From Paraspadella gotoi (Eukaryota; Animalia; Chaetognatha), in the NCBI GenBank assembly GCA_051294375.1, contig CM119269.1, positions 11,638,883 to 11,702,882 on the forward strand: DNA of 64,000 bases. The letters run 5' to 3'. The translations under genes were made by a program, and so were the position numbers. Each line of letters starts with the position of its first letter. The stretch's first letter is position 1. Shown one piece after another: positions 1-54,953 of this stretch. A model generated the notes under the pieces. That model did not search any database. It worked only from the letters and a program-made list of their open reading frames with translations, and was not told where the DNA came from.

Positions 1-81
1 ACACAAGGTCCCGAACTTTGGATCGGGCTGTAGTCCGTCACTAAAGGTGGGTTAGACGCTCCATCCCGCTTTTACTTGTGT
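1..81 (-). ncRNA. Type-P5 twister ribozyme-like motif (family B, 3' LTR)
   Basis: Minus strand reads ACACAAG..GCGG GA TGG AGCGTC TAA CCC AC [P3] CCCGA TCCAAAGT TCGGG..CTTGTGT. Pseudoknots CCA/TGG and AC/GT; P5 ACACAAG/CTTGTGT. Confidence 0.7.
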
Positions 82-500
82 GAATCAGCAGGGCGCGAAC
101 CCAAGTCCTTTGGGTTGGGAGGAGTTCGTGCTACCTCCAGCGCCATAGGTGCTGCTGATTCTCAGACGAGTAACGGGGTATGAAATACTACCGCTACCCA
201 TCCCCCCCTAGGCATCACACACCCGCGCAAGTATGATGGCTATGATGCACGCGTTGTGCCCGAGCACTCTAGAAGGGGCTGCCTATTCCTGCTCCCGTCT
301 TCACACACGATGGTCGAGGGCAGAGGTGTGTTAACATGCCCGGGCAGAGGTGTATTAACGTGCCAGCGTGTTCGTGTGGTCTCACCAATGTGAAAGACGA
401 TGCCGCGAGCAATTTACCGTCCGTTGCACACAAGGTCCCGAACTTTGGATCGGGCTGTAGTCCGTCACTACACTACGCCCCGTCCCGCTTTTACTTGTGT

Positions 501-580
501 GAATCAGCAGGGTGCGAACCCGAGTCCTTTGGGTTGGGAGGAGTTCGTGCTACCTCCGGCGCCATCGGTGCTGCTGATTC
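501..580 (-). promoter_or_regulatory. tRNA-derived segment (A/B box-like) in family B LTR
   Basis: Minus strand TGGCGCCGGAGG ... CTCCCAA ... GGGTTCGCACCC, closed by the perfect 10-bp stem GAATCAGCAG/CTGCTGATTC. Confidence 0.55.
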
Positions 581-924
581 TCGGACGAGTAACGGGGTAT
601 GAAATACTACCGCTACAATCATGAATTAAAAATCTTGATGAATAGTTTTGTTGTTTTTTTGGGGGGACTCCATAATTCACTAAGTAGGTCTGTTGGTCAC
701 TGCCCATTATTTGTTTGGTGATTTATTTAATTCCTCTTTGAACAGCAAATTATGAATGTTTTTTTTTTTAATTATGTCTCTCTGTATCAGTTCATCAGTA
801 TGTCCTTCAAACAAAAGAGAGAAAAGGGTTACCCCCAGGGGCAGACTTTTTAGAGCCACCCCGCGGGGCGGAGGATTTGGGAGATAACTTTTCTCAAATT
901 TATGATAAAATTATTAATCTATTT

Positions 925-1940: not shown

Positions 1941-2207
1941 TGTAGTCGGGCATTGCAAAGTTCACCCCGCCTCTAAGCATGGCACCTTCAGTCGTGACCG
2001 GTGGCTCATTGAGTAAAGCCATCAGCTCATGACCCATAGGTACCGGGTTCAATCCCAACCCGGTACCTACTCTGCGGGAAATGTGAGGACGGCCGACGAA
2101 CCTGGGGGGCGTCGAAAACCCTCAAGCCTTTCCAAGCCCATAGCTGCTAGAGGGGGTTAAAGAAGTTACGGATAGTCATCTTCAGCCCACTGAGCGCCTT
2201 ATCCACA
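1941..2207 (+). mobile_element. Solo LTR, family C (tRNA-Met-like head, degenerate twister)
   Basis: TGTAGTCGGG...ATCCACA, homologous to 19053-19298. Contains TGGCTCATTGAG (A box), CTCATGA loop and GGTTCAATCC (B box). No perfect TSD. Confidence 0.65.
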
Positions 2208-2577
2208 GAGAAGTGTTGAAGTGTGATAATCTGAGATGTGTGAAAGGAGTTTAAAGAGGGAGAAGTGTGGAAATGTTAGGAGAGTTAAAAAATATGAAGT
2301 AGGAAGAAGTGTTAACGAGTGTGGAACATATAACAAAAGAATTAGTTGGAGGAGGAGAAAAAAATATAGTGAGGAGAAGAAGATGAAGACATAAGAAGTT
2401 GATTGTAGAAGAGGAGGAGAAGAAGAAGAAGAATAAAAAAAGAAAAGAAAAAAGGAAAAGAAAATCAAAAAGAAAATAAAAAGAAAAAGTACAATAAAAA
2501 AAATAAGAGCATGTAAAAAAAAGAAACAGGAAAAGGAGGAAAAGGAAAAAAGAGCAAAAAAAGAAAAGGGAAAATAA

Positions 2578-4580
2578 TAAAACAAGTTTGAGCAAACAAT
2601 GCCGGATCTGCCCACGATCACTCGCGGTAAGCAGCTAATCAGATAATTAATTAATTAATTAATTAATTAATATTATTTTTTTTATTTGTGTCAAAATCGT
2701 TTTCCACTTTGTCTCGCCTCTCAATCACCAAACAACAATCTCGATCACAAAATTAAATAATAATTTATTAATGCAGCTTGAATTTACATTTAATATAAAA
2801 AACTAACAAGTTTGAGCAAACAATGTCGGATCTGCCTACGATAATTAAGCGGTAATAAGCTAATCCGATGATAAATCATGGTAATTTTTCTGATTCTTAA
2901 TTTGTGATTATAACAAATCATAACAGACTACTTAATAAATCTATGAAAAAATCTATAAATCAATTGATCTATCAATCATTACCAGTAGCTGTGCCAATAC
3001 CAACTTGCATAATTTGGTCAACTTTCATAATTTAATCAACTTGCATAATTAAATCTACTGGCATAATTTGATCAATTGTCGTAATTTAGTCAACTGGCAT
3101 AATTTTAGTCAACTGACATAATTTGCTCAACTGCAAAATTTGGTCAACCGGCGTAATTGGGTCTATTAGAATAATTTGGTCAATCAATCAGAGAGAGATA
3201 GAACGAAACATTTAAAAATTGACATAAATGTGTCTTTTCGTTATCTGTTTTAAACTCTTTTCCACTCCAACGATTCCATCAAAAACTTATATCCAGCTTA
3301 ATGTCATAGTTTACTACCCACACACAAAATTTCCTTTTAATTTATTTATCCAATTTTTAATAAATATAATAATTATTAGTAAGTATAAGTAAAAATGCTT
3401 CAAGTAAATATAAATTTTGTTTTTATTCGGATCTGCTTATCAGCAGATCTCGACTCTATAATTCACTTTGTCGGTCCGCCCCCTCAATCTTGTTGGCATT
3501 CACTTATATCATGTCAGAACATTGAATTATGATAAATTATGCAAAAAGAACGATGACCGTCCGTTCGTCTGTCTGTCTGTCTGTCTGTCCGTCCATCCCA
3601 CCTTAGCAAAAAACACCAATTACTCGTGATTGGATAAATGGATTGGAATAAAATTTGGTGTGTGGGTAGGGAAGTGTGTGATTGAGCTGGATATAAAGTT
3701 TCGATGGAATCGTGTGAGTGGAAATGAGTTTAAATGGAAAAAATATAGATATATTTCACTATTTGAACACCAATTACTCATGAATAGAAGGGGCGATTGA
3801 CTTAGAATTTTGTATTTGGATAGAAAAGTGTGTGATTAAATGGAAAACAAGTTTTGATGGAATCGTTTTTAAATGTAAATGCAAGATGTATTAATTCATC
3901 AAATAATTAATCAGTTATTTAATCAATTAGTCAATTAATTATTCAATTAGTCAATTAATTAATCAATAATTAATTAATCAGTCAATATTGCCTAATTAAT
4001 TAAATAATTAACTTGAATAAATTATTATTAATTAAATTAATTAATTAACTTAAATAAATTAATTATTATTAATTAACTTGAATTAATTAATTATAATTAA
4101 TTAATTTCTATTTAAACTCATTTCACTCACACGATCAGTAGCGGTAGTTAAATAATAAATTAATTAATTTGATCCGAAATGTTTGTTTTTAGGTCTTTTC
4201 ATCACTTACCATGACAAAAGCAACGTCGACGATGATGGCGAAGACGACAATAATGCCAATAACGATTGATTAAATAATTATTTAATTGATAAATAAATTG
4301 ATTGATTGAATAGATAATTAATATATAAATAATTGATTGATTTAATAATTAATTGATTGATTAACTGACTGATTAATTAATTATTGATTATTTAATTAAC
4401 TAATTGATTAATTAACTGATTAATTATTTGATTATTCAATACATCTTGCATTTACATTTAATATAAAAATAAAAAGAAGCATAATCAATTAGTGAAACAG
4501 GTTTTTTGCTTTTTCCATTTCCATCGATACTTGGTTTCCAGCTTAATCACACACTTTCCTATCCACATACAAAATTTCAA
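2578..4580. repeat. Cluster of Helentron/DINE-1-like non-autonomous repeat fragments
   Basis: Family ends AACAAGTTTGAGCAAACAATGYCGGATCTGC and CGGATCTGCTTATMAGCAGATC hairpin, GTCT/GTCC microsatellite, internal CAACTTGCATAATTTGGT repeats. Confidence 0.55.
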
Positions 4581-5555
4581 GTCAAGCGCTGAGTATAAAT
4601 ACAAAACATGAAAAATCTAACTTCGAGTCCTCTTGATTTTTTGACATAGACATAAACTTATTACCTAGGGTATGAAAAACTAAAATTTGATTGCCCAGTT
4701 TTCCCGTCCGAGCCTGTTTATAATACGACCGAAAGTCAAAAATTGCCAAAAAATCAACAATATGCGGCCAATCGAGCCTTTTGTTTGCCAAAACTAAAGT
4801 AAATCGTTCGCCGATAAAAGACTCACTAATCTGTACTTTTGCTCATCAACTGTTATCTTTATTGATTTGTCCTCTGAAAGAATTCAGACTGGTTTTGACT
4901 CTTGAAATAATAAAAGTGTTCCTACTACAAATTGAATTAGTTTTACTTCTTTTATCTCAATGTAATTAAGTACATTATCAAACAAAGAGAAACTCTACAT
5001 TTATACTAAAACTATTTCACAACAAATCAATTCAAGAAAACAAGTCAATTGATAGATAAACGCTGTGCCTTCCCTGCGAAACTCTCCAGCCAAAGATGCT
5101 TCAATATCAACTATCTTAGAACCCCAGCGTTCAGTTGACAAGCTATTCGGCAATGATATTGGACCCTCTATACCTTGCCACACTTGGTAAGCCCGACGAC
5201 GAATCCAACCAACCTTCAAGCAAGCGGGGTTCAAGAGGAATCCAACTATCTCTCAGGTAAGATTGGATGACATTGGAAAATTAAGCGAATTCATCCAATT
5301 TCGCTAACGCTTTTTCCATCAACCCCATTTACCCCGCGATCAACCTCACGACGCCACCGCGGCTAGGAGCAACGCTACCGACTCAGATCCACTCAAAGAG
5401 ACGCCGACGAGCAACGGGCGGAAGCAGCCACTCTCCAGGTTCCATTTGGCTTTGGACGAGGGCGGCGATCAAGATCTACATCTCCCAACTACGCCGACGT
5501 CACTCAAATTTTCGAATTCCAAGGAATCAGCGCCGCCAACTTCGAAAACGCCGTC

Positions 5556-6227
5556 ATGGCGACCGGCGGCGACGCCGAGAGGGAGCTGCGCGGCGAAAAT
5601 GAGGAACTTCGCGCCGCCGCAGCAACTCGAGCACTCGAACGAGCGTCAAACAGGAAGCTGGATTTACCCGACTTCGACACGACGAACATCGAGGTGTGGA
5701 TTAAGCGGGTAGAAGCCGCTTACACCCGCGCCGGGATAACGGCGCCGAAAAACAAGTTTGCCCATCTAGAATCAAAGATCGGCGTCAACGTCGATCCTCA
5801 GATAAACCAATACCTGTTCGGCGAAACCACGGAGGCGACATGGAGTCAATTTCTGCAATATTTAAGAAAGGAGTACGGCCTATCGCGTCGACAGCAGGCT
5901 GCGCACCTCCTCGACACCCTCGACATCGATGGCATCAAACCGTCGAAAATGTTAGCTCAACTTGAGGAGAAGACGAGGACCCTCACTGTCGACGATATTA
6001 GAAAAGAGAAAATTCTAAGGGAAGTACGCCGCCAACTTGAAGACAAGGCGGAAGAATTGTCAGCCAGTGACCTCTGTAAATTGGCGGATCATCACTACAA
6101 CCATGAAGGCCAGCTCAAAATCCGCCAAACGGCCTCACTAGTCAGCAACGTCGACCACTGTCAACGAGATTGTCAACCATCGTCATCTGACGACGACGAC
6201 GGCATTAACGCCCTGATCCAAAAATAA
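5556..6227 (+). CDS. gag: Gypsy Gag (C-terminally truncated)
   Basis: LPDFDTTNIEVWIKRVEA...GIT...KFAH motif typical of Gypsy Gag N-termini; lies between PBS and pol. Confidence 0.8.
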   Translation: MATGGDAERELRGENEELRAAAATRALERASNRKLDLPDFDTTNIEVWIKRVEAAYTRAGITAPKNKFAHLESKIGVNVDPQINQYLFGETTEATWSQFLQYLRKEYGLSRRQQAAHLLDTLDIDGIKPSKMLAQLEEKTRTLTVDDIRKEKILREVRRQLEDKAEELSASDLCKLADHHYNHEGQLKIRQTASLVSNVDHCQRDCQPSSSDDDDGINALIQK

Positions 6228-6283
6228 AACTCCAAGCGGCTAACGGATCTCCTATTAGCTGCTACGGAACAGAAAATAAAATC

Positions 6284-9200
6284 GTGACGCTCGGCAAGCG
6301 CCAATTTCACTACGAATTCATCGTCGCCGATGTCATTCAGCATATTCTCGGCGCCGACTTCTTGGCGGAAAACTTTCTGGCGCCAAATCACCGAGACGGT
6401 TTGTTAATGGATCTACAGGACTACTCGACAATAGCAGCGTCGACAGCGTCTGAAATCACCACGCACGTGAGCTTCATCGATCGAAAGGGAGAAAAGTTTT
6501 ATAAACTTTTAGAATCGTTCCCTTCTCTCTCGACGCCAACGTTCGAATTAAAAACACCAAAACATGGCGTCACTCACTCCATACCGACGGAGGGGCGTCC
6601 TTGTCAGTCTCGAGCTCGGCGTCTCGACCCGGAGAAGTTGGCAGTGGCAAAAAGAGAATTAGAGAGAATGGTCTCGCTAGGCATCGCCAAACGTGGGAAA
6701 TCGGAGTGGTCATCGCCGCTACACGTAGTGGCGAAGCCGGACGGCGGCTGGCGCTGCTGCGGGGACTACAGGCGCCTCAACACCCAGACCATTGACGACC
6801 GATATCCTGTAAAGCTACTCACGGACTTTAACGCGCAGCTGGAAGGGAAGACAATCTTCTCGAAGATTGATCTTCTTAAGGGTTATCATCAAATCCCAGT
6901 TAACCCAGTTGACGTGAAGAAGACCGCCGTCATCACCCCCTTCGGCTTGTACGTGTTCCCACGATGCCCCTTTGGATTAAAAAACGCTGGACAAGATTTC
7001 CAGCGTTTGATGGATGAAATCCTGGGGGAAATTCCACATACGTTCGTCTACTTAGACGATATTCTGGTGGCGTCGTCATCTCCGGAAGAACACCTACAGG
7101 ACCTGGAACGGGTCTTCAAGGCCCTCGACGCCAACGGTTTGGTGGTCAACACCAAGAAGTGTCTCCTTGGACAGGAATCATTAGAATTCCTCGGTTTTCT
7201 GGTTGACAAACATGGAGTTCGACCACTCCCGGAACGAGTCCAAACTCTCCGCGAAACCTCGAGGCCAACTACTGTCAAGGAACTCCAAAGATTTTTAGGA
7301 ATGATTAACTATTATCGACGATTCATTTCTAAAGTTGCTCATCGATGCGCACCGCTGTATGAAGCGTTGAGCGGCAAGCCAAAGGTTTTGAAATGGACAG
7401 AGGACTGTGAAAACGCCTTTGAATCCATTAAACAAGGCTTAATTGAGGCAGCACTGCTACACCATCCTAGAACCGGCGCGCAGCTGTGCATAACCACAGA
7501 TGCCTCAGACAACGCAGTCGGAGCCGCGTTGGAACAACGAGGACCCAAGGGATGGGAACCGTTAGCATTCTTCTCAGCCAAACTGGCGAAAAATCAAAGA
7601 TTATGGCCGCAATTTGATCGAGAACTATTTGGAGCCTTCAAAGCCGTGCGCCACTTCCGCCACTGGATAGAGGGCCGCAGCTTTACAATATACACGGACC
7701 ATCAGAGCCTTATCCCCGCCATCAAAAAGAAAGCCGAACCGCAAACTGCTCGTCAAGCATATCAATTATCTGTAATCGCTGAATTTACAACTGATATTCG
7801 ATATTTGAAAGGGAAAGCAAACGTCGTTGCCGACGCCCTCTCTCGTCCGAATAATCCGCCGGCAACGTCGACGACGCAGCAGCAGCAGCAACAGCAGCAG
7901 CAACAGCAGCAGCAGCATCAGCAGCCGGCCGCGACGGAAAACAAAGCAAAAATGTCGACGATCAACAGCGACGCAGACAACAACAATTCGGCCTCAAATG
8001 ATCAGGTCGATGAACGACTTGAAGAAAAGAAGGAAAAACAAATCAAGGTCGATCGCCTCGAAGACGCCAAGGCAGTAATCGCCTCGTTATCGACGTTCAA
8101 AGTAGATTTTGAACAAATGGCTCGAGAACAAAGCCTTGATCCCGACTATCAAAAAATCGCTGAAGAAGCCAGGTCGGGTCTAACCTTCAGGAAAATTCAA
8201 GTCGGCAATGAGCAACTTCTAGCGGACATATCGAACGGCCCTGCCCGCCCGTTCGTCCCTGCAGCATGGCGAAAAAGAATTTTCGACATAATACATGGCC
8301 TCGGACATCCGGGAATCGACGCAACTCGAAAAGCAGTAGCATCGAAGTTCGTCTGGATGAACATGAAGCAGGACGTCACCAAATGGGCCAGAAACTGCAT
8401 AGATTGTCAGAGAGCGAAGATAACGAGGCACGTGATACCTGAAATCGGCGAATTCAAGGTACCTCCACGAAGATTTCAGCATGTAAATCTTGACCTCGTC
8501 AAAATGCCAACCTCCAACGGCTTCAAGCATCTGCTCACGGTAGTTGACCGATTCTCAAGATGGCCGACAGCTATCCCCATCAAGGATACACTTACTTCAA
8601 CAGTTCTTGACGCCCTCAGCCACGACTGGATCAGTAATTTCGGAATTCCAGCCGTTATCACAACTGATCGCGGGACTCAATTCAATTCGGCGCTCTGGCG
8701 GCAATTGACGAGGCAATGGGGAATAAAGCATCAGACAACCACAGCCTATCACCCCCAGGCCAATGGCCTCGTTGAAAGATTTCATAGACGACTCAAGGAA
8801 TCCCTTAGAGCTTTAGCAAAGGATGACAGAGAAAATTGGTATTGGAAACTGCCGTTAACGCTTCTCGCTATCAGGACGACGGTGAAGGAAGACATTGGCG
8901 CTTCAGCAGCCGACCTGGTCTTTGGAGAAGGTCTCAGCGTCCCAGGCAGCGTACTCGGCAACAGCCAGAATGATGATGCAAATCTTCACCGTCAACGTCA
9001 AAACCAATTGGCGAGTTTGCGAGTCGAAGTCGCCCGTCTTCAGTCGACAGCAACTTCGGCACACCACCAACCAATGGTACACCTCCCAGCCAACCTCAAC
9101 TCTGCACAGTACGTATTCGTTCGGCGAGGAGGCGTGCAACCACCTCTGGTCCCACCCTACGAGGGACCATACAGAGTCGTCAATCGAAATGGACTAAATA

Positions 9201-9793
9201 TGACGATTGAAATTCCAAGCGTCGGCAGAGAGACAATTAACATCGCACGAATCAAGCCAGCTTGGATCAGCGATGACGTACTGGAGTTTAATGAGTCGGA
9301 GACCCGTCAGCGACGTCGTCCAGGCCGTCAACCAGGGATTCGAACCCGAACGCCAGCTCCGACGACAAGAATGACGAGATCGGCGACTCTGCGCGCCGCT
9401 CCTCTGCCACCTCCTCCCTCCTCAACCTCCTTCCCCACCCACCCCCCAACACCCTCACCCCCCCTCCAACCCATTCCCACGCCACTCCCATCTTCAAATT
9501 CTCCGAGCCTTCTCCGCTCGACATCTACAATCTCAAAAGAAAAAGAAATAAATAATAACAACAACAACAACGCGAGCGAGATAGAGCCAACGTGGAGATT
9601 TCCGAAGCCGACAGCAGAGAACTCTTCGAACAGAGGGATACGACAGACGGACCAGGAACAAAAAGACAACTCAAATAACATCGGCGACAAATACAACAAC
9701 AACAACAACAATCGTCCAACCTATTCGGTCGTGTTAAAAGAAATGCTCCGCCGACAGGAAAAAGAAAACGACTGTCGACAACTATATTTATAA
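6284..9793 (+). CDS. pol: Gypsy Pol (protease C-half, RT, RNase H, integrase)
   Basis: ILGADFL; RT motifs GDYRRLN, KIDLLKGYHQI, YLDDIL; RNase H TDAS and ADALSR; integrase H-x3-H..C-x2-C, TDRG, ERFHR, GPY. Confidence 0.97.
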   Translation: MTLGKRQFHYEFIVADVIQHILGADFLAENFLAPNHRDGLLMDLQDYSTIAASTASEITTHVSFIDRKGEKFYKLLESFPSLSTPTFELKTPKHGVTHSIPTEGRPCQSRARRLDPEKLAVAKRELERMVSLGIAKRGKSEWSSPLHVVAKPDGGWRCCGDYRRLNTQTIDDRYPVKLLTDFNAQLEGKTIFSKIDLLKGYHQIPVNPVDVKKTAVITPFGLYVFPRCPFGLKNAGQDFQRLMDEILGEIPHTFVYLDDILVASSSPEEHLQDLERVFKALDANGLVVNTKKCLLGQESLEFLGFLVDKHGVRPLPERVQTLRETSRPTTVKELQRFLGMINYYRRFISKVAHRCAPLYEALSGKPKVLKWTEDCENAFESIKQGLIEAALLHHPRTGAQLCITTDASDNAVGAALEQRGPKGWEPLAFFSAKLAKNQRLWPQFDRELFGAFKAVRHFRHWIEGRSFTIYTDHQSLIPAIKKKAEPQTARQAYQLSVIAEFTTDIRYLKGKANVVADALSRPNNPPATSTTQQQQQQQQQQQQQHQQPAATENKAKMSTINSDADNNNSASNDQVDERLEEKKEKQIKVDRLEDAKAVIASLSTFKVDFEQMAREQSLDPDYQKIAEEARSGLTFRKIQVGNEQLLADISNGPARPFVPAAWRKRIFDIIHGLGHPGIDATRKAVASKFVWMNMKQDVTKWARNCIDCQRAKITRHVIPEIGEFKVPPRRFQHVNLDLVKMPTSNGFKHLLTVVDRFSRWPTAIPIKDTLTSTVLDALSHDWISNFGIPAVITTDRGTQFNSALWRQLTRQWGIKHQTTTAYHPQANGLVERFHRRLKESLRALAKDDRENWYWKLPLTLLAIRTTVKEDIGASAADLVFGEGLSVPGSVLGNSQNDDANLHRQRQNQLASLRVEVARLQSTATSAHHQPMVHLPANLNSAQYVFVRRGGVQPPLVPPYEGPYRVVNRNGLNMTIEIPSVGRETINIARIKPAWISDDVLEFNESETRQRRRPGRQPGIRTRTPAPTTRMTRSATLRAAPLPPPPSSTSFPTHPPTPSPPLQPIPTPLPSSNSPSLLRSTSTISKEKEINNNNNNNASEIEPTWRFPKPTAENSSNRGIRQTDQEQKDNSNNIGDKYNNNNNNRPTYSVVLKEMLRRQEKENDCRQLYL

Positions 9794-11786
9794 TATTTAA
9801 AATTTTAAGCATTTCATATTTCGATTTTTCGAATTTTTTGTATTTTACGATTTTTGTCGTAATTTTACTTTTGAACGTTTTATGGAATCAGTCAGTAGTC
9901 AATTTTTCATTTTGTATTTACCCGTATATATATATTAGAAATTAAATTATTGCACAAACATACAATCACTCGATGGACGACGCCCCTTTTTTGAAATATA
10001 TGGGTAATATAATTCAAAACTAAAGTAAATCGTTCGCCGATAAAAGACTCACTAATCTGTACTTTTGCTTATCAACTGTTATCTTTATTGATTTGTCCTC
10101 TGAAAGAATTCAGACTGGTTTTGACTCTTGAAATAATAAAAGTGTTCCTACTACAAATTGAATTAGTTTTACTTCTTTTATCTCAATGTAATTAAGTACA
10201 TTATCAAACAAAGAGAAACTCTACATTTATACTAAAACTATTTCACAACAAATCAATTCAAGAAAACAAGTCAATTGATAGATAAACGCTGTGCCTTCCC
10301 TGCGAAACTCTCCAGCCAAAGATGCTTCAATATCAACTATCTTAGAACCCCAGCGTTCAGTTGACAAGCTATTCGGCAATGATATTGGACCCTCGATACC
10401 TTGCCACAAATATATGAAATTAAAGATATCGGCTTTAATTAATAATTTTTCATATATTATTACTAAAATTAAAGTAATATTGACAGATTTTATGATTTAA
10501 AACATAAAATATTGATATTATAAAAAAATTTCAGTTTTTTAAATTATGAATTATTCTATTAAAAAGCCGACAAATTGAGCAAAATAGAAAAAAATTGCGC
10601 CCCTAAATAAATTATGCTTAAAACTTTGAAATGAAGACAAAAAATGTTATTTTGTATAAAATAAAATGATTGTCATAAGAAACAAGTAATATTTGTTGGG
10701 AGACATGATAAAAACCTCTGAAAATGATAAAAATACTTGTTTTACTTCTTCTGTATTGAGCTAACAATCATAGATGGTTTAAGATGACTATCATTATTTC
10801 TTTTTAATAATGAGGAATTAAAGCAGTCAAATGTTAACAGTTCTTATAACAATATTAGTAAAATCATTTAGGCACCATTGTTGGGCAGAACTTCCAGGGC
10901 TCAACTCGTTAAACGGAAAAAAAATAATATAAATAAACTTTGCTTTAAGAATTAGATCAATTTTTGACAGATCTGATAAACTAATAACTTGATACAAAAA
11001 GCACCATAAAACTTTTTTAAAACATGTTGCTAATAAGGCACTATAAAAATATCTTGAAGAATTCACAAGCAGCTTTCCAGCGCCATGTCACCAACAAGGA
11101 AATACAGACTACCACCCAGGCGCCATAAAAAAACTTGTGGGATTCACAGGCAAATTTTTATTTAAGGCTATGATACCCACAAAATAACAGTAAGTAACAT
11201 AATAATTTATTTCATTTAGCGGTCAGCACAATAAATAAAGTCATTAAATTATATATTTATTATTTTGATGAAATATTTTTTTGTATCTGCTTCGGGAACC
11301 GCTGTATGAGAAGAAATTCTTTCTCAAATGTAACCATTATGGTGGATTAACATCCACCAACCGTTCATCAGCGGCCATTGGTGCCGGAGGCAAGTCATTC
11401 CCCTCCCAACCCAAAGGTCCGGGGTTCTAGCCCGGTGGTCGCCTGGCAGTTAAGAGGGACGGGGCGCTTAACCCGTAATATGATGTTACAGCCTGATCCG
11501 AAGCTCAGGGACTGCTTATATTGAACGGTTCTGTCACTAACACATAACAATAATTACTGTCTCTTCATTAGTGAGCCCGATTTCCGAACACCACAGCAAC
11601 AACAGCACTTTCAGGTGACATGCCTCAACCTGGCGATGCACTTTCCGCCCACAACACATCAGGCGACATGCCTCAACTTGGTGACAAACTTTCCACCAAG
11701 AACAACAAATCACTGAAGAGACGCAAGACTTCTCCCTACGGGAGGGGGGGATGTATGGTGGACTAAAATCCACCAACCGTTCATCA

Positions 11787-11858
11787 GCGGCCATTGGTGC
11801 CGGAGGCAAGTCATTCGCCTCCCAACCCAAAGGTCCGGGGTTCTAGCCCAGTGGTCGC
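11787..11858 (+). promoter_or_regulatory. tRNA(Gly-CCC)-like segment with A/B boxes inside family A LTR
   Basis: Acceptor-like stem GCGGCCA/TGGTCGC, TGGTGCCGGAGG, CTCCCAA loop, GGTTCTAGCCC. Anticodon stem does not pair. Confidence 0.6.
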
Positions 11859-11861
11859 CTG

Positions 11862-11935
11862 GTAGTTAAGAGGGACGGGGCCCTTAACCCGCCTGTAATA
11901 TGGTGTTACAGCCTGATCCGAAGCTCAGGGACTGC
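11862..11935 (+). ncRNA. Type-P5 twister ribozyme-like motif (family A, 3' LTR)
   Basis: GTAGTT..GAGG GA CGG GGCCCT TAA CCC GC CTGTAA..TTACAG CCTGA TCCGAAGC TCAGG GACTGC. Predicted cut 11885/11886. Confidence 0.75.
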
Positions 11936-13285
11936 TTATATAGAACGGTTCTGTCACTAACACATAACAATAATTACTGTCTCTTCACCATCTCTATTAT
12001 TAAAACCAGAAACCTGAGTAACAATATCAGTTATATCTCTTATTAAACATTCAACCAATTGAGTATGACTTGGAAATGTAGGAAGTATAAGCTTTTCTTT
12101 TTCAATATTTTTAAGCTCTGACAGTTCTGCCTTGGGAATTTTATTTTCCCGTGGGCAAGAGCACTCAGTATGCGCTTTTTCCACGCAATTTTCATCACAT
12201 TCAACGGTTTCATCATCACAGCTTTAAATGAAACACAGCGGAGTACATTAAATAAACACTTCAAGCGATAATCAAAACATTTTTTCGAAATTCCATTCTT
12301 TAGAAATCCAGAGACAAACAGAATCTTCGTTCATAACAGCAAGAGAAGTATTAGTTTTTTTGGCATAGCGCAATAATTTCACTTGACAAGCTAAAAAAAC
12401 AGATCCAGTATTCTACCTTCTTTCCTAAATTAAATAAATATCTCATATTTTAATAATATAATTTATGATGTATTAAGCTGCTGGTTATTTTTTTTTTAAA
12501 TCACTTTTGAGAGATAAACTGTAACTGTTGAACCTTTTTATACAAATAATACTTAAATCGTCCCCAAAAAATCTTATTTAGTTAAATATTAATAAAACGT
12601 TTATCAAAAATATATTAAAATACTAATGTAATTATAACACTGGATAAACAACGATATTACTCCTTGTTTTAAAAGACATGCATCAAATAATGGTAAATCA
12701 AAACTTGGCGAAGGTTTGGAAGATACAATAACTGGATTAATGGGTAATCTTAGAGTTTTTTTAACTTTCGGCATTATGAGCTACAGTTATATACAAACTA
12801 TGAAGAAATAAATGTCTTACGTAATATTCATAGTAAAAAAATTCAAGGTTTAAGAGTATCGCTGCATACGTCGGAGGAGTAAACTTGAATCCGCGATTCT
12901 CAGATTTCGACCAATCAGAAACCTCGATCGAGTCGGAGATTTAAGCAGACGACAAACACAGAGGACTCGGAATTTCAATGTTGGATTATAACCTTCGTGA
13001 CGTTTTTACGTGAACAGAATCGGTTAGCGATTAAAATTGTTTGGAAATCGGTTGATTAGATTAAAAAATAGTAAAACCAAAATATTAAGAGGACTCGAAA
13101 TAGTTTAATTCAAATTATGTACTTATAATCCGCGCTAATAATCAATTAGTGAAACAGGTTTTTAGTCGGATCTGCTTATAAGCAGATCTCGACTCTATAA
13201 TTCAATTTGTCGGTCCGTCGGTCCGTCCCCTCAATCTTGTCGGCCATTGACATATATCAAGTCAGAATATCGATTTATGATAAAT

Positions 13286-13519
13286 TGAAGAGACATTAAT
13301 TATTTATAAGTGTTAATTACAGAACCGTTCAATGTAAGCAGTCCCTGAGCTTCGGATCAGGCTGTAACACTGTGTTACAGGCGGGTTAAGCGCCCCGTCC
13401 CTCTTAACTGCTAGGCGGCCACCGGGCTAGAACCCCGGACCTTTGGGTTGGGAGGCGAATGACTTGCCTCCGGCACCAATGGCCGCTGATGAACGGTTGG
13501 TGGATTTTAGTCCACCATA
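13286..13519 (-). mobile_element. Solo LTR, family A
   Basis: Reverse complement of the 11754-11987 LTR with identical boundaries; AAAT TSD at 13282-13285 and 13520-13523. Confidence 0.9.
13338..13411 (-). ncRNA. Type-P5 twister ribozyme-like motif (intact copy)
   Basis: Minus strand GCAGTTAAGAGGGACGGGGCGCTTAACCCGCCTGTAACACAGTGTTACAGCCTGATCCGAAGCTCAGGGACTGC. Confidence 0.78.
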
Positions 13520-14337: not shown

Positions 14338-16742
14338 GATAAATTATGCAAAAAAAAGATGTCCGTCCATCCGTCTGTCTGTCTGTTGGTCCGTCTGTCT
14401 GTCTGTTCATCTGTCTATCTGTTTGTCCGTCCATCCCACCTTAGCAAAAAACTCCAATTACTCGTGATTGGATGGATGGATTGGAATTAATTATTCAATC
14501 TATCAATTTATTTATCAATTAATTAATTATTTAATAAATAAATCAATACAGTCAATCGTTATCAGCTTTATTGTCATCGTCGCCATCATCGTCGTCGTTG
14601 CTTTTGTCATTGTAAGTGACGAAAAGACCTAAAAACAAACATTTCAGATCAATTTGATTAATATTTATATTTATATATGATTATACATGACATCGTGGAT
14701 ATTTAATCAGTGACTTACTTAATAGTTTGAAGGCTACTTGACTGGCTTCTTGGTAAGACTAATGAACTAGAGAGTATAGACCTATGAAAAGATAGCAATT
14801 ACATGTTATTATCTTAATGAGTGCTAAACCTAAGTGTTTAGCTAGCAAGGGCATAGTGGTTAAAACCGACCTTTGTAATCCTAGCTGACTAAGGGATAAT
14901 TCTCTGAGAATATATTTCTCTTACTAAACATAGAAAAGTCAGCTGGAATCACAAGAATAATTGAAGTAGTAAACTAGCATTTATGATAATTAAATCATTA
15001 ATTATTTAGCTATTAATTGAAACACAAATAAACATGATCATTTACTAATGTAAGATATTAATACTTATTAAAAATAAATATTTATAAATATAAATATATT
15101 TATATTAATATTAATTAATTACCGCTAATGATTGTGCGAGTGGAAATAAGTTTAAATGGAAAAAACAAAAGTCATATTTACTTGAAGCATTTTTATTTAT
15201 ATTTACTCATAATTATTATATTAATTAAAAATTGGATAGATAAATTGAAATGAAATTTTGTGGGTGGGTAGGAAACTATTAAGCTGGATATAAGTTTTTG
15301 ATGGAATGATAGGAGTTTAAAACAGAAAACCAAAAGACACATTTATATCAATTTTTAAAAGTTTCTCTCTATCTCTCTCTATCTCTCTCTGATTGATTGA
15401 TTGACTGATTGATTGATTGACCTAATTATGCCAATTGACCAAAATATGCCAATTGACCAAATTATGCCGGTTGACCAAATTTTGCAGTTGAGCAAATTAT
15501 GTCAGTTGACCAAATTATGCTAGTTGACCATATTATGTCAGTTGACCAAATTATGCAAGTTGGTATTGGCACAGCTACTGGTAATGATTGATGGATCAAT
15601 TGATTTATAATTTTTTTCATAGATTTATTAAGAAGTCTGTTATGATTTTTTATAATCACAAATTAAGAATCAGAAAAATTACCATGATATATCATCGGAT
15701 TAGCTTATTACCGCTTAATTATCGTAGGCAGATCCGACATTGTTTGCTCAAACTTGTTTTTTTCCATTTAAACTCATTTTCATTTAGATGATTCTATCGA
15801 AACTTGATTTCCAGCTTAATCACACACTTTCCTACCCACATACAAAATTTCAAGTCAATCGTCCCATTCACTCATGGCGTTCAAATAGTGAAATATATTT
15901 TTTTGTTTTTTCCATTTAAACTCATTTCCACTTGCACGATTCCATCGAAACTTCATATCTATCTCAATCACGCTCTTCCCTAGCCACACACAAAATTTCA
16001 TTCCAATCCTCGATCCTCATCCTCCTCTTCCCCTCCCTCTCCCGAGGATCCGTCCTTTTTAGTCCACTCAATAAACATTACCGTTGCGATATATGTCTTT
16101 TTCTTCAGCAATCCATCCATCCAATTAGAGTAATTGGAGTTTTTTGCTAAGGTGGGACAGACAGACGGACGGACAGACAGACGGACGGACATCGTTTATT
16201 TTGCATAATTTATCATAATTCGATGTTCTGACATGATATAATTATATGTGAATGCCCAACAAGATTGAGGGGGCAGACCGACGGACCGACAAAGTGAATT
16301 ATAGAGTCGGGATCTGCTTATAAGCAGATCCGACTAAAAAACATAATCAAATAGTGAAATATATTTTTTTTCCCCATTTTAATTCATTTCCACTTGGACG
16401 ATTCCGTCGAAACTTTATTACCTGCTCAATCACACACTTTCCTACCCATAATAAAAGAAATTGAAGTCAATCGCACCATTCACTCATGAGTAATTGGTGT
16501 TCGAATAGTGAAATATATGTTTTTGTTTTTTCCAGCTCAATCACACACTTTCCTACCCACACACAAAATTTCATTCCTGTCCATCCATCAAATCACGAGT
16601 AATTGGTGTTTTTTGCTAAGGTGGGACGGACGGACAGAAAGACAGACAGACAGACGGACATCATTTTTTTCCATAATTTATCATAATTCGATGTTCTGAC
16701 ATGATATAAGTGAGTGCCCGACAAGATTGAGGGGGCGGACCG
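14338..16742. repeat. Helentron/DINE-1-like repeat copies in both orientations
   Basis: Same terminal motifs (GCAGATCCGACATTGTTTGCTCAAACTTGTT; GGATCTGCTTATAAGCAGATCC) and GACG/GACA microsatellites as at 2578-4580. Confidence 0.55.
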
Positions 16743-19052: not shown

Positions 19053-19298
19053 TGTAGTCGGGCATTGCCTAGGTTCACCCCACTGAGTAAAGCCATCAGC
19101 TCATGACCACTAGGTACCGAGTTCAATCCCAATCTGATACCTACCCTGCGGGAAGCGTGAGGACGGCCGTAAACCGCCTTGAGGGCGTGGAAAACCCTCA
19201 AGCCTGGTTCCAAGCCCAGGACCCGTTCCATGGCTGATAGAGGGGGTTAAAGAAGTTGCGGATAGCACTCTTCAGCCCCACTTAGCGCCTTTTCCACA
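19053..19298 (+). mobile_element. Solo LTR, family C
   Basis: TGTAGTC...TTCCACA with TATA TSD (19049-19052, 19299-19302); B box AGTTCAATCC; deletion across the A-box region relative to 1941-2207. Confidence 0.85.
19148..19226 (+). ncRNA. Type-P5 twister ribozyme-like motif (family C)
   Basis: GCGGG..GCGT GA GGA CGGCCG TAA ACC GC CTTGAGGG..CCCTCAAG CCTGG TTCCAAGC CCAGG ACCCGT. Predicted cut 19170/19171. Confidence 0.75.
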
Positions 19299-23673: not shown

Positions 23674-25049
23674 AAACAAGTTTGAGCAAACAATGCCGGA
23701 TCTCCCCACGATCATTAGTGGTAAGCTGCTGATCAGGTAATTAATTAATTAATATTAATTTTTTTTATTCGTGCCAAAATCGTTTTCCACTTTGTCTCGC
23801 CTCTCAATCATAAAACGACAATCTCGATCACGAAATTAATTAATTAATTACTTATTTATTAATAATTAATTAATGCAGCTTGAATTTATATTTAATATAA
23901 AAATAATAAAAGCATAATCAAATAGTGAAATAGATTTTTTCATTTTAACTCATTTCCACTCGGACGATTCCATCGAAACTTTATTTCCTACTCAATCACA
24001 CACTTTCCTACCCACTAAGGCGTAGTGAAAGTTACATACGAAAATTCTAAAAATCAAGAATGAACAACATACCATCAGTGAACATTAATTTATAAAAAAA
24101 ATTAATTTTATGTTTTTTAATTTTCGCAGTAGGCTATATTTATATATAGTACTATCCTTATAAAATCGAAAAATTTCAAAATAAGCTTTTCTTAATTTTG
24201 ATTGCAGATTTGAATTTCTAGTCTAAAGTTGATGAAAGAAAATATAAATCATTTGTAAAAATTATTTCATTAAGTGGATTAAAAATTAAAAAAACCATAT
24301 TTAATATATAAAAAATTATTTTTCAGCTTAAAATATAGCTTTTTCTAATTTTTGACCCACTTAATGAAGGAATTTTTCAAAAAGAGTTATATTTCTTTTT
24401 ATCAACTTTTTATGACAAATCCAAATCTGCCAAAAAATCTTAGAAAAAACTGTTTTGAAATTTTAACATTTATTGGTTTAGTACTAGTATAAATATGGCC
24501 TACTGCGTAAATTGTAAAATTTATTTTAAATTTTTTTTATGCATAAATGTTCATAAGTATAATGTTGTTCGTTCCTCACTTTTAGATTTTTAATTAAAGT
24601 TAAACTTAGGAATTTTACTACGCCTTACTACCCACATACAAAATTTGAAGTCAATCGCCTTATTCACTCATGAGTAATTGTCGTTCAAAACTTCAAATAG
24701 TGAAATATATGTTTTTGTTTTTTCCATTTTAACTCTTCTTCACTTGGACGATTCCAACAAAACTTGAATTATAGCTCAATCACACACTTTCCTATCCACA
24801 CACAAAATTTCAATCCAATCCATCCATCAAATCACGAATAATTGGTGTTTTTTGCTCAGTTGGGACGGACGGACGGACGGACAGACAGACAGACAGAGAG
24901 ACAGACGGACGGACATCATTTTTTTTGCCTAATTTATCATAATTCGATGTTCTGACATGATATAAGTGAATGCCCGACATGATTGGGAGGGCGGACCGAC
25001 AGACAGAATTATAGAGCCGGATTCTGCTGTAAGCAGACCCGGCTAAAAA
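23674..25049 (+). mobile_element. Full-length Helentron/DINE-1-like non-autonomous element
   Basis: Both family termini present; interrupted by the MITE at 24016-24627. Confidence 0.6.
24016..24627. mobile_element. MITE with 8-bp TSD (hAT-like)
   Basis: TIR TAAGGCGTAGTGAAA / TTTTACTACGCCTTA; TSD CTACCCAC at 24008-24015 and 24628-24635. Confidence 0.85.
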
Positions 25050-25152
25050 CGTGTTACTTATGTATCGCTTTTTGAAGATGGTTTCTGATTTCTATCATTG
25101 TCACATCACAGATGAATGAAACCCGGAAACAGAGGAAAAGATTAAGGAAATA

Positions 25153-37997: not shown

Positions 37998-40900
37998 CTT
38001 TCCCATTTTGGCGCGGGATCGTTCTTCTGCGTTCATAATTAGATTATTTCTCCGAACTCTTTAAGGACTCGTTCTCGTTCTAGAGAATTCTTTTTATTTC
38101 ATTTCCCCGACAATCTAGCGACGCTTAACGATCGGACTTCCTTCAAAAGCGTTACGCCTTTGGGTTCAACGAAAGGGTGGGAAAACGGTTTTCGACGACC
38201 GATTTGGAAGTCATCGTTTTCTCGTTCCCCGATCGGTTGAATTTCGTTTCTTCGTTCCCGATCGGCTTAATTCGGTCATCGTCGTTATCGTCGATGTGAG
38301 AAATTTGGAAGGCGTGAGAGGAGAGAGAAAAAAACCAGCTTACCTTGCTTGGTTTTGTTTTGTCTTTAAACTTGTTTGACTCTAGTTTTGTTTTTGTCCT
38401 GTTTTTGCTGTTGTTTTAATTTGTCTTAGTTTTGTTTTATTTTGGTTCTATTTTCGTTTTGAGATTGTCTTATAAATGTTTTGTTCATAGTTCTTTTTCT
38501 GATTTTGTTAAATGATGTTCTGGTTAATTCTGGTTGTTGTTTTGTTGTTTTGGTTGGATTCCGGTTGGGCTTTCCATAATACTTTCATCAGTGAATCAAT
38601 TCTAACGATCGGTTAAAAAAAATTGTACGAAGGTGTGTGAAATTCTATGTTCATGATTTCAACTTTTAAAGTTCGAACTTAATTTTTACATCAGACGGAG
38701 CAAATATATTATCTTTTGCCTTGTGATTGTATTAAGGTGGACACTCAAGATAGGACGTCCTTTGGACTGGAGAAAAAGATCCGTTTACCACCCTTGATCG
38801 AGAAAAAAATGAGAGAGAGAGAGCCGAGAGAGAGAGAGAGAGAGAGAGAGTCGTTATATTACGTAAAAGTTTTAGTTTGAAATTTAAAGTATTTTTAGTC
38901 GGATCTGCTTATCAGCAGATCCCGACTCTATAATATTCACTTTGTCGGTCCGTCGGTCCACCCCCTCAATCTTATCGGGCATTCACTTATATCATGTCAG
39001 AACATTGAATTTTGAATAAACTATGCAAGTTTTTGAAATTTTTACAACAATTTTATTTGTAAATCGTTGTAAAAAATTCAAAAAATTTGCTAATCTCTTA
39101 CAACAGAAGGATTATATTATGATAAATTATGCGGTCCGTCCGTCGAAAGTGTGTAATTGTAGAATTGTGGAATTGTGCGCGTGAAATGAGTCGAAATGGA
39201 AAAAAAAAAAAAAAAAAAAAAAAATTATTATTTGAACGCCAAATTACGCACGAGTGGATAGGGCGATTGACTTATATTTTTGTATGTGGATAGGAAAGTG
39301 TGTGATTAAGCTGGAACCAAGTATCGATGGAATCGTCTGAGTGGAAATGAGTTTAAATGGAAAAATCAAAAAACTGTTTCACTAATTGATTATGCTTCTT
39401 TTTTCTTTCTATATGAAATATAAATGCTATGTATTATAATCAAATAATTTAATCACGTAATTAATCAAATTAGTAATTAAATTAATCAATAATAGTCAAT
39501 AATAATTAATCAATAATCAGTCAATTTATTATTCAATAATTCAATTCTTTATACTATTACTAAATTATTCAATCAATTTATTTATCATTAATTAATATTC
39601 AATCCATCAATTTATTTATCAATTAATTAATTCTTCAATCAATCAATCAATCAAGTCGTTGGTCACTGACGAAAAGGACCTAAAAAAAACATTTTTGGCG
39701 ATCAATTAATTATTAATGCCTAATTAATTAGTTACCTTAAATTAATTAATAAATTAATTAATAAATTATAGTTAAATTAATTAATTAATTAATTAAACAA
39801 TTTAATTAATAATTTAAATTATTTATTAATTAATAAATTAAATAATTACTGCTAATGATCGTGGGCAGATCCGACATTGTTTGCTCAAACTTGTTTTTTA
39901 TCAGACACTTTTAATTTAAAAATTTCATGTACCACGGGAAAACCATGTTTAAAGATGGGTTAAATATATATATATAACATAAGGTCATGTTTTAATGCGT
40001 CACTAAAAATGACCAAAAAAGCACTTAATAAAAAGATGACAGCTGCTCGTTCTCATTTGAAGTGTTTAGACTTTGCCGACTCACTATTAAAATGTTCCTT
40101 TCCCACGATGAGGTGTGTTTTTATAATATTTGTAAACCTATTGCATGGGGGGAAAATAGTTCTTTAATTCGAAATAGTACTCTTGACTCAACATATGAAA
40201 CTAAAATTTAATTATCACCATGATTTTTTCAATTTTTAACACAGACGTGATTTCGAAATTTCATGCGGAATTGTGAATATCCTATTTTTTGAAAATTTAA
40301 ACTTCTTTTACCTTTTAACTTTTTAAACTTTTTCTCCAGCTGATTTTTAGCTACTGTTTTGGGGCGATTCGCCTATTTTACTACCCTGTAAAAAAAAATA
40401 AAACTAGACGGAAAGAGATTAGGACGACGACTACGAGTTAAAACAACATCGTTCAACAATCCTTTTAAAAGCTTTTTTCCTACATAAAAAAAAAGTAAAC
40501 CTGGACGTAAAATTTCTTTGACATGTTTTTCAATTTTTCCTTTTTCAGATTTCACAACAAACAGGTCTACTTTCAAATGGGCTTGAAAAAACTCGTTCAT
40601 CGGCCAGACGGGAAAGGATTTAAGGAAGGACATCCTGGTCAGTTTTTCTATACGTTTTTGATTGCATTGCCATATTTCCAAAAGTGCCCTATCCAAGATT
40701 AAAATTAGAATTTTAAGTAAGTTTATAAGGTAAAAAAAACAAGATCGGTTCATCCAATGTGTTGCGCCGCAGTAACTTTATTTCCATTTAATATAAATGA
40801 TATGACATGACAATAAAATCTTTTGAGCCCGTATATATATAACATGCACTGCCATCGAAATTCTATTTTTTATTCCTTATAATTTTAGAATTTCATGAAA

Positions 40901-54886: not shown

Positions 54887-54953
<67 letters not shown>

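What the first reader, a model, noticed from the sequence alone, without database searches (positions are those of the whole stretch)
11338..11987. Candidate new system: twister-ribozyme LTR 'retrozyme' with a tRNA-derived promoter
Seen: a 650-bp non-coding LTR-PBS-PPT-LTR element with a 4-bp TSD; removing it restores the interrupted transposase frame. Each LTR holds a tRNA-like A/B-box segment followed immediately by a type-P5 twister fold. Known: plant LTR retrozymes carry hammerheads in their LTRs and yield circular RNAs, Cassandra TRIMs carry 5S Pol III promoters in their LTRs, and animal twisters are mostly reported with non-LTR (RTE) elements. Inference: a Pol III transcript self-cleaves in both LTRs (11469/70 and 11885/86) to release a ~416-nt PBS+PPT-containing unit that could circularise and be copied by a Gypsy RT. 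I know of no description of this combination, but could not search.
Basis: partly seen in the sequence, partly recalled or inferred. Interest (0 to 1): 0.93.

Follow-up and report, generated by a model that had tools for sequence, protein, structure and literature searches.

The report
Animal mini-retrotransposon carrying twister ribozymes
A short, many-copy jumping element in what is likely an animal genome has two terminal repeats that each hold a tRNA-like stretch followed by a fold matching the self-cutting twister RNA; it likely cuts its own transcript twice and closes it into a circle for copying, a combination I found in no paper, though cutting and circles are untested and this copy is damaged.

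Summary
The element is real: LTR-PBS-PPT-LTR at 11338-11987, CCAT target duplication, sharp ends in over 150 contigs of one run. Two more families in the window share the tRNA-like-plus-twister LTR layout. Across the 4 intact LTR copies (of 7), 89 of 92 base-pair cells hold and 12 of 23 pairs change on both sides, both pseudoknots included. Rfam recognises only family C (Twister-P5, E 0.02, below cut-off).

The tRNA-bearing LTR part is published (Helenus, Kojima 2024). A twister in an LTR element and an animal LTR retrozyme were not found in ten literature searches.

New detail: P1 is replaced by a 6-base self-complementary linker, suggesting the two LTR ribozymes cut as a pair. That would release a unit RNA without terminal redundancy, so it would need to circularise. 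The primer site of most copies matches the neighbouring intact Gypsy at 12 of 13 bases.

Corrections: this copy's 5' ribozyme has a rare 4-base deletion, so undamaged units would be about 420 bases; P2 is one pair short; the host 'transposase' is unconfirmed. Cleavage, Pol III use and circles are untested.

The parts
11334..11337 (+). Left target-site duplication CCAT
   Evidence: LTR ends fixed by loose ends
11338..11567 (+). 5' LTR of family A (230 bp; starts TA, ends CA)
   Evidence: 169 contigs of run X1 leave the sequence at 11567
11371..11442 (+). tRNA-like segment: acceptor-like stem 11371-77 with 11436-42, degenerate A box 11379-90, B box 11423-33 (likely Pol III internal promoter)
   Evidence: sequence, folds; not called by ARAGORN or Rfam
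11445..11516 (+). Type-P5 twister fold of the 5' LTR, predicted cut 11469/70; 4 bases missing at the T2/P3 junction, likely inactive in this copy
   Evidence: X1 depth 6,984 at 11476 against 1,868,248 at 11899 shows the deleted form is rare
11569..11581 (+). Primer-binding site; 10 of 13 identical to the Gypsy PBS at 5185-5197 in this copy, 12 of 13 in most copies
   Evidence: 99.7% of X1 depth reads G at 11570 and 98% reads C at 11581
11568..11753 (+). Non-coding internal region (186 bp) with two 46-base imperfect repeats and a stretch near 11710-11725 complementary to the LTR end and PBS
11740..11751 (+). Polypurine tract, two bases before the 3' LTR
11754..11987 (+). 3' LTR of family A (234 bp)
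   Evidence: 157 contigs of X1 leave at 11754 and 31 at 11987
11787..11858 (+). tRNA-like segment of the 3' LTR
11861..11936 (+). Type-P5 twister fold of the 3' LTR: P5 11861-67/11930-36, general-base G 11874, T1 11876-78/11918-20, linker 11879-84, predicted cut 11885/86, P2 11888-90, T2 11891-92/11923-24, P3 11893-911, P4 11912-16/11925-29
11988..11991 (+). Right target-site duplication CCAT
13286..13519 (-). Solo LTR of family A with ATTT duplication; intact twister (predicted cut 13388/87) with self-complementary linker
1..617 (-). Family B element: LTR 617-389, PBS from 387, PPT 209-201, second LTR from 198 cut by the window edge; same tRNA-like plus twister layout
19053..19298 (+). Family C solo LTR (TG...CA, TATA duplication) with twister 19148-19226 (Rfam Twister-P5, 21.2 bits, E 0.02)
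1941..2207 (+). Second family C copy: canonical A and B boxes, decayed twister, no clean TSD
4790..10408 (+). Intact, young Gypsy element (LTRs 391 of 393 identical; gag-like 5367-6227, pol 6209-9793; PBS 5185-5197): candidate helper lineage

Best explanation
This is a non-coding miniature LTR retrotransposon (TRIM) whose LTRs each hold a tRNA-like segment and a type-P5 twister fold, and it likely works as an animal LTR retrozyme: a predicted Pol III transcript would be cut in both LTRs, likely by the two ribozymes pairing through their self-complementary 6-base linkers, and the released unit of about 420 bases would be ligated into a circle that a Gypsy reverse transcriptase likely copies. 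Shown: anatomy, TSDs, many insertions, conserved twister pairing across three families, primer-site match to the Gypsy. Inferred: each of the following steps. (1) Transcription starts near 11371 and, with no T4 run in the element, reads through both LTRs. (2) The linker of one LTR pairs with that of the other to make P1, so each active site joins the upstream half of one ribozyme to the downstream half of the other, as in double hammerheads. (3) Two cuts leave a unit with no terminal redundancy, its ends held together by P5, P2 and T1 and joinable by a host RtcB-type ligase. (4) The circle holds one ribozyme only and is thus spared from recutting. (5) tRNA-primed copying runs across the circle junction, rebuilds two LTRs, and Gypsy integrase inserts the DNA with a 4-bp duplication. 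The copy at 11338-11987 is itself probably defective.
For: Pairing: 89 of 92 cells paired and 12 of 23 pairs with changes on both sides in 4 copies from 3 families, 0 of 500 shuffles as high, slid controls at most 49% paired. T1 reads CCG/CGG, CCA/UGG and UCC/GGA; T2 reads GC/GC and AC/GU. The catalytic G-A, U/AA and L4 AA are invariant. Rfam Twister-P5 hits family C. Published testing of 1,948 natural twisters found P1 and P2 flaws tolerated and pseudoknot or catalytic changes harmful (PMC11662667 sections 32 and 38); the flaws here fall in P1 and P2. The linker is exactly 6 bases in all three families and fully self-complementary in A (5' LTR and solo) and C, with changes on both sides in 2 of 3 pairs; 29 of 694 LTR 6-mers have this property; 98% of X1 depth has the self-complementary form at 11882. 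Common variants in P5 (11861 G>A, 11863 T>C) and P3 (11899 T>C) turn wobbles into standard pairs. The PBS of most copies matches the Gypsy PBS at 12 of 13. Precedent: plant LTR retrozymes with hammerheads (PMC4918200) and dimer-dependent hammerheads in amphibian retrozymes (PMC7229834, PMC7761336).
Against: No cleavage, transcript or circle was observed. Rfam does not detect families A or B at E up to 5-10 and family C stays under the cut-off of 37.6 bits. P2 has 3 pairs and a bulge where the Rfam consensus has 4. Three of 7 LTR copies in the window have a damaged core and were left out of the pair count, among them this element's 5' LTR. The structure was fitted by hand and only three lineages stand behind it. 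Family B's T1 change rests on one copy (the other has a C-A mismatch) and its linker there pairs at 2 of 3 positions. Energy minimisation puts family A's P2 region in a slipped pairing that would block T1 and T2, and z-scores run only from -0.4 to -2.4. The predicted 416-base circle is 56% paired, below the 70% or more reported for retrozyme-type RNAs (PMC4918200). Family A and B promoter boxes each miss a canonical base. Lack of T4 is not significant (28% of shuffles also lack one). P1 is dispensable in some twisters, so monomer cutting is possible.
Confidence: 0.55

Rival explanations
1. The twister is active but serves only to trim the RNA. It cuts slowly or mainly in the 3' LTR, giving a Pol III read-through transcript a fixed 3' end. 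The RNA stays linear with a repeat of about 98 bases (LTR positions 34-132) and is copied by ordinary strand transfer, as assumed for Helenus and Cassandra.
For: Family A has no T4 terminator and the first lies at 12093 in the flank. Helenus and Cassandra move without known ribozymes. The predicted circle is only 56% paired.
Against: Both LTRs carry the same ribozyme, so nothing obvious spares the 5' site. The conserved self-complementary linker points to paired, two-site cutting. Family C has a T4 run at its LTR end and still keeps the twister.
Confidence: 0.2
2. The ribozymes cut as independent monomers (the 6-base linker acts as a loop and P1 is dispensable); the rest of the circle cycle is as in the best explanation.
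For: P1 flaws did not lower cleavage in CHiTA and P1 is called dispensable (PMC11662667); S. mansoni variants tolerate weak P1 (PMC8501958). Family B's intact copy has a poor palindrome.
Against: The central pair changes from C-G to G-C between families A and C while staying self-complementary; a hairpin with a 0-2 base loop cannot explain that.
Confidence: 0.12
3. The twister is a relic: a tRNA-headed SINE with a ribozyme-bearing body was captured into a TRIM LTR, and the fold is now inactive or kept only as a structural or packaging signal.
For: Kojima proposes SINE capture as the origin of Helenus. P2 is shortened, Rfam misses families A and B, and 3 of 7 copies are damaged. Unchecked earlier notes report similar palindromic P5 twisters in Naiad elements, a possible donor.
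Against: Three divergent families keep every catalytic base and compensate changes in both pseudoknots, which neutral decay would not do. The damaged forms in this copy are rare among other copies.
Confidence: 0.1
4. The repeats are not true LTRs; the element is a Penelope- or LINE-dependent repeat (pseudo-LTR or non-LTR retrozyme).
For: Family A starts with TA, not TG. Published animal retrozymes and twisters go with non-LTR elements.
Against: PBS, PPT, 4-bp TSDs at 3 of the 4 insertions with both flanks in view, solo LTRs, TG...CA ends in families B and C, and sharp ends at both LTR borders. Published animal retrozymes lack LTR, PBS and PPT.
Confidence: 0.03

Closest known systems
Helenus / TRIMp3 (Kojima 2024, PMC10886601; read parts 1-4 of 6 of the text, two motif searches in the supplement)
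   Same: Short non-coding LTR element, tRNA-like segment with A/B boxes in each LTR, PBS and PPT, 4-bp TSD as in animal Helenus, PBS shared with a Gypsy, solo LTRs.
   Different: No ribozyme is described: 'twister' occurs 0 times, 'ribozyme' once in a reference title. Eleven short motif searches of the supplement showed no twister-like context in the passages returned and no match to this family's tRNA-like core.
Plant LTR retrozymes (Cervera et al. 2016, PMC4918200; passages. Also PMC9695139; passages)
   Same: Non-autonomous LTR element with a self-cleaving motif in each LTR, 4-bp TSD, PBS and PPT like Gypsy, unit RNA between two cut sites, promoter upstream of the ribozyme.
   Different: Those carry type III hammerheads, a tRNA-Met PBS, 600-800-base highly paired circles and occur in plants; no tRNA-derived promoter appears in the passages I saw. 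Here a P5 twister, about 420 bases, 56% paired, likely animal host.
Type-P5 twister ribozyme (Rfam RF02684; Roth et al. 2014, not read)
   Same: Same order of strands, G-A and U/AA catalytic positions, L4 loop, both pseudoknots, P3, P4, P5.
   Different: P2 has 3 pairs plus a bulge; P1 is a 6-base self-complementary linker with no loop; families A and B are invisible to Rfam.
Twisters of RTE elements (S. mansoni Perere-3 T-variants, PMC8501958; passages)
   Same: Twister tied to retrotransposition, weak P1, similar P3 and P4 sequences.
   Different: Those are P1-type at the 5' end of non-LTR elements and cut once; here P5-type, internal to LTRs, two per element.
Animal non-LTR retrozymes and dimer-dependent hammerheads (PMC7229834, PMC7761336, bioRxiv 2026.07.22.740005; passages and part 1 of the preprint)
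   Same: Small circles of 170-400 bases released by paired ribozymes, ligated by RtcB-type enzymes; short helix that needs two copies.
   Different: Type I hammerheads, tandem repeats, no LTR, PBS or PPT, thought to use Penelope-like helpers.
Tornado synthetic circular-RNA system (bioRxiv 2023.07.11.548538; passages)
   Same: Two twisters flank an RNA, and RtcB joins the cut ends into a circle.
   Different: Engineered; not a mobile element.

Membership tests
Helenus (TRIMp3) | Short non-coding element with two LTRs, PBS and PPT | tested here: met
   650 bp
Helenus (TRIMp3) | tRNA-like sequence in the LTR with GGTTC in box B | tested here: met
   GGTTC at 11423 and 11839, also families B and C; acceptor-like stem
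Helenus (TRIMp3) | Box A with TRGCY and YGG (most families) | tested here: inconclusive
   Family A has the YGG but reads TGGTG; the family C copy at 1941 has TGGCT
Helenus (TRIMp3) | 4-bp TSD in animals | tested here: met
   CCAT, ATTT, TATA at 3 of 4 insertions with both flanks in view; LTR ends fixed
Helenus (TRIMp3) | PBS shared with an autonomous Gypsy | tested here: met
   10 of 13 in this copy, 12 of 13 in most copies; the tRNA itself (Trp-like) is recalled, not tested
Helenus (TRIMp3) | Transcription by Pol III | not testable with these tools
   Not validated for Helenus either
LTR retrozyme (plant type) | Type III hammerhead in each LTR | tested here: not met
   No hammerhead hit; a twister fold stands there instead
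LTR retrozyme (plant type) | LTRs, PBS, PPT, 4-bp TSD, no coding capacity | tested here: met
LTR retrozyme (plant type) | Highly self-paired unit RNA | tested here: not met
   56% paired; -127.1 against -106.2 +/- 7.5 kcal/mol in 30 shuffles
LTR retrozyme (plant type) | Circular RNA accumulates in cells | not testable with these tools
   Only contigs were available
Twister ribozyme, type P5 | Catalytic G and A, U/AA site, L4 with AA | tested here: met
   Invariant in 4 of 4 intact copies
Twister ribozyme, type P5 | Two pseudoknots T1 and T2 | tested here: met
   20 of 20 cells paired, 3 of 5 pairs with changes on both sides
Twister ribozyme, type P5 | P2 of four pairs as in the Rfam consensus | tested here: not met
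   Three pairs plus a bulge in all families; P2 flaws are tolerated in CHiTA
Twister ribozyme, type P5 | P1 closed as a hairpin | tested here: not met
   6-base linker with no loop
Twister ribozyme, type P5 | Rfam gathering score | tested here: not met
   Family C 21.2 of 37.6 bits; none for A or B
Twister ribozyme, type P5 | Site-specific self-cleavage | not testable with these tools
   Needs an in vitro assay

The most novel reading that the evidence does not exclude
A natural 'double twister' that fires only when both LTRs are in one transcript gates the release of a Pol III-made circular RNA genome, making these families the first animal LTR retrozymes, the first twister-based LTR elements and a natural counterpart of the engineered Tornado system; Rfam-blind relatives may be common in invertebrate repeat libraries.
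Probability: 0.38. Interest if true: 0.9.

Novelty: new variant of a known kind. Interest (0 to 1): 0.76.

Why it matters
If true, the retrozyme strategy (self-cut, circularise, borrow a Gypsy) arose again in animals with a different ribozyme and a different promoter, so it is a general solution and not a plant-and-hammerhead oddity. It would give twister a role in LTR elements, supply a natural twister that needs two copies to cut (known so far for hammerheads), and explain how a Pol III element sets its RNA ends without a terminator. It offers a short, testable system for the open question of whether a Gypsy RT copies a circular template. It also shows a twister variant that standard Rfam scans miss.

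Tried and rejected
Rfam scans of family A, family B and the whole window at gathering score gave no twister, hammerhead or tRNA; ARAGORN gave none. No whole genome is held, so no genome-wide copy or TSD census was possible. A twister pattern gave 0 matches in viral contigs and 1 in metagenome contigs; that locus, L001, looks like protein-coding DNA with no LTR and was rejected as chance. No RNA holder was listed with certainty; run X9 is only guessed to be RNA and consists of contigs, so it says nothing on expression. A profile from 7 LTR copies and a covariance model from 4 found no further family in the window; the model also missed the decayed copy at 1941. The host frame at 11993-12223 (minus) had no Pfam match, no homolog among longer or similar-length proteins and no atlas hit above 0.83; a deeper profile search was not obtained. 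The Gypsy pol search returned almost only unnamed metagenome proteins and did not place the host. A 5-bp TSD reading (both family A flanks have an A before the duplication) was rejected because contigs leave the element after the terminal A and family C has TG...CA with TATA. A P1-type reading was rejected because no P2 partner followed by G-A lies downstream of P4. A twister-sister reading was set aside because both pseudoknots covary. Absence of T4 runs is not significant. Variation among family B copies elsewhere in the genome was not obtained, so its T1 change rests on one copy. Earlier-findings look-ups by sequence, by genome and by the full word set were empty. Repbase and Dfam could not be searched.
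Full report
OBSERVATION. The element spans 11338-11987 on the plus strand. Its LTRs (11338-11567, 11754-11987) share 222 of 230 aligned bases and differ by one 4-base gap. CCAT flanks both ends. The 186-base interior starts with a primer-site-like stretch (11569-11581) and ends with a purine tract (11740-11751); the longest ATG-started frames are 48 and 85 codons. A solo LTR of the family lies at 13519-13286 with an ATTT duplication. Laying contigs of four public runs on 11250-12080 showed sharp borders: in run X1, 169 contigs leave at 11567, 157 at 11754 and 31 at 11987 into unlike flanks (agreement about 0.4); in X9 the counts are 47, 30 and 3. So this is a many-copy family with LTR-type ends, starting TA and ending CA. 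The tool's tables were cut (40 variant rows shown, 46 hidden), so I do not claim the core is invariant among copies. The claim of a restored transposase frame is weak: without the element the frame runs two more codons to a stop, and no search recognised it. Its resemblance to a transposase end is recalled only.

THE RIBOZYME. Rfam does not see family A. By hand the 3' LTR fits a type-P5 twister: P5, then G-A followed by the T1 strand, a 6-base linker, U/AA, P2, T2, P3, P4 with an 8-base L4, and the P5 partner. Energy minimisation recovers P3, P4 and P5 but pairs the P2 region in a slipped register; z-scores are -0.58 (3' LTR) and -2.40 (solo). The real test came from relatives in the same window. 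Family B (617-1, minus) is a second LTR-PBS-PPT-LTR element with the same tRNA-like and twister layout. A descriptor scan found family C at 19053-19298, a solo LTR with TG...CA ends and a TATA duplication; the scan gave 3 hits in the window against 2 in 30 simulated windows. Rfam scores family C as Twister-P5 at 21.2 bits, E 0.02, under the cut-off of 37.6. Of 7 LTR copies, 4 have an intact core; the 5' LTR of this element, the 5' LTR of B and the C copy at 1941 do not and were left out. In those 4, 89 of 92 cells pair and 12 of 23 pairs change on both sides (0 of 500 shuffles; slid controls 21-49% paired). Without the three linker pairs the figures are 79 of 80 cells and 10 of 20 pairs. Both pseudoknots covary (3 of 5 pairs), and the catalytic positions are invariant. 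The caveats are real: the structure was fitted by hand, three lineages are few, and B's T1 change rests on one copy.

TWO DEPARTURES FROM THE STANDARD FOLD. P2 has three pairs and a one-base bulge in all three families, where the Rfam consensus has four. P1 is not a hairpin but a 6-base linker. It is fully self-complementary in A (5' LTR and solo) and C and pairs at 2 of 3 positions in the intact B copy; 29 of 694 LTR 6-mers are self-complementary. Two of its three pairs change on both sides between families, including the central one, which only a duplex between two copies explains. This element's 3' LTR breaks the palindrome at 11882, but 98% of X1 depth and 99% of X9 depth read the palindromic base. 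CHiTA testing of natural twisters found flaws in P1 and P2 tolerated and flaws in the pseudoknots and catalytic bases harmful (PMC11662667, sections 32 and 38), so the departures fall where they are least likely to kill activity.

THIS COPY IS DAMAGED. The 5' LTR lacks 4 bases at the T2/P3 junction. That form is rare: X1 depth is 6,984 at 11476 against 1,868,248 at 11899. The cut-to-cut distance is 416 here and would be about 420 in undamaged copies. The PBS also departs from most copies at 11570 and 11581.

PROMOTER AND HELPER. Directly upstream of each twister lies a 72-base tRNA-like stretch with an acceptor-like stem, a degenerate A box and a GGTTC B box; neither ARAGORN nor Rfam calls a tRNA. 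The family C copy at 1941 has canonical boxes; A and B each miss one canonical base. Family A has no T4 run, but 28% of shuffles have none either. An intact Gypsy (RT, RNase H and integrase domains; LTRs 391 of 393 identical) lies at 4790-10408. Its PBS matches this copy's at 10 of 13 and the majority letters of other copies at 12 of 13. That points to a shared primer tRNA (Trp-like by recall) and makes this Gypsy lineage a fair candidate helper; nearness in the window is no evidence. The host is likely an animal, judged from spliced transporter-like exons at about 52.9-58.4 kb (family name recalled, not tested).

MECHANISM. Inferred from the anatomy: a Pol III transcript from about 11371 reads through both LTRs. 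The two linkers pair, building two hybrid active sites that cut both LTRs together. The released unit has no terminal repeat, so it can only be copied in full as a circle. Its two ends carry the two halves of one ribozyme, which hold them side by side for a host ligase, and the closed circle, with one linker only, would not recut. tRNA-primed copying across the junction rebuilds both LTRs. I put this at 0.55, and the twister being active in some form at about 0.85. The rivals are 3'-end trimming of a linear RNA (0.2), monomer cutting with the same circle cycle (0.12), a relic (0.1) and a non-LTR origin (0.03). Against the circle: the predicted unit is only 56% paired and no RNA evidence exists.

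COMPARISON WITH WHAT IS KNOWN. The tRNA-bearing TRIM is Helenus (PMC10886601; parts 1-4 of 6 read): animal families have 4-bp TSDs and Gypsy-like primer sites. That paper has no mention of twister, and 11 short motif searches of its supplement showed no twister context in the passages returned; I did not read the supplement whole, and line breaks can hide motifs. By anatomy the element qualifies as Helenus. It works like a plant LTR retrozyme (PMC4918200, PMC9695139; passages) but fails membership as defined, having no hammerhead. Published animal retrozymes lack LTR, PBS and PPT (PMC7229834, PMC7761336, PMC6765202; passages), and a July 2026 preprint still lists LTR retrozymes as primarily plant and hammerhead-based, with 0 mentions of twister (part 1 of 5 and passages; its supplements are closed). 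Published eukaryotic twisters in mobile elements are at RTE 5' ends (PMC8501958; passages). Naiad elements are described as lacking canonical hammerheads, with no mention of twister (PMC8557442; passages). I also saw passages of PMC6154101, PMC13725137, PMC10085705 and the Tornado preprint. Roth 2014, Lunse 2017, Forster 1988 and the Cassandra paper I saw only as references.

NOVELTY. Ten searches found no twister in an LTR element, no animal LTR retrozyme and no natural two-copy twister. The library lacks most subscription journals, and Repbase and Dfam were out of reach. Unchecked notes from this scan describe palindromic P5 twisters in Naiad elements of other genomes; they are leads on the origin of the module, not support, and I had noted the palindrome before seeing them. 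Verdict: a real feature and a new variant that joins two known kinds (Helenus promoter, retrozyme logic) through a third part new to both. Interest 0.76.

Noticed in passing
window 617-1 (minus): Family B: second tRNA-plus-twister TRIM, cut by the window edge; its 5' LTR has lost the cleavage site by an 8-base deletion.
   Followed up: yes
window 19053-19298 and 1941-2207: Family C LTRs with canonical A/B boxes; no internal region seen, so its being a full TRIM is inferred from TG...CA ends and a 4-bp duplication. The copy at 19053 has a T4 run at its end.
   Followed up: partly
window 4790-10408: Young, intact Gypsy element; the shared LTR sequence does not start with TG and no clear purine tract precedes the 3' LTR; the pol frame holds a long glutamine run between RNase H and integrase.
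   Followed up: partly
window 11557-11575 with 11709-11724; family B 412-381 with 319-256: The LTR end and PBS can pair with an internal stretch in both families (6 of 200 and 3 of 200 shuffles as strong), which may present the primer site.
   Followed up: partly
window 11567 to 11753/11754 joints in run X1: A few contigs join an LTR end straight to an LTR start: tandem LTRs or two-LTR circle junctions.
   Followed up: no
window 11507-11680 and 11871-11980: Two contigs from a second organism (run X10; 3 and 9 differences) and one from a metagenome (run X11; 5 differences) lie on the element, so the family may extend beyond one species.
   Followed up: partly
window 11338-11359: Family A LTRs begin with TA, not TG, followed by a short hairpin; a TG lies between the purine tract and the 3' LTR.
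   Followed up: partly
window about 10850-12420 (minus): Decayed coding-like host sequence into which the element inserted; it is itself repeated in the genome (flank depth in X1).
   Followed up: partly
window about 52900-58400 and 63000-63300: Exons of a sodium:neurotransmitter symporter-like gene (name recalled), with a frameshifted second copy of the first exon near the window end.
   Followed up: no
window 2574-4589, 13153-13286, 14338-16742, 23674-25055, 38892-39901, 47201-48227: Many interspersed copies of another internally repetitive element family.
   Followed up: no
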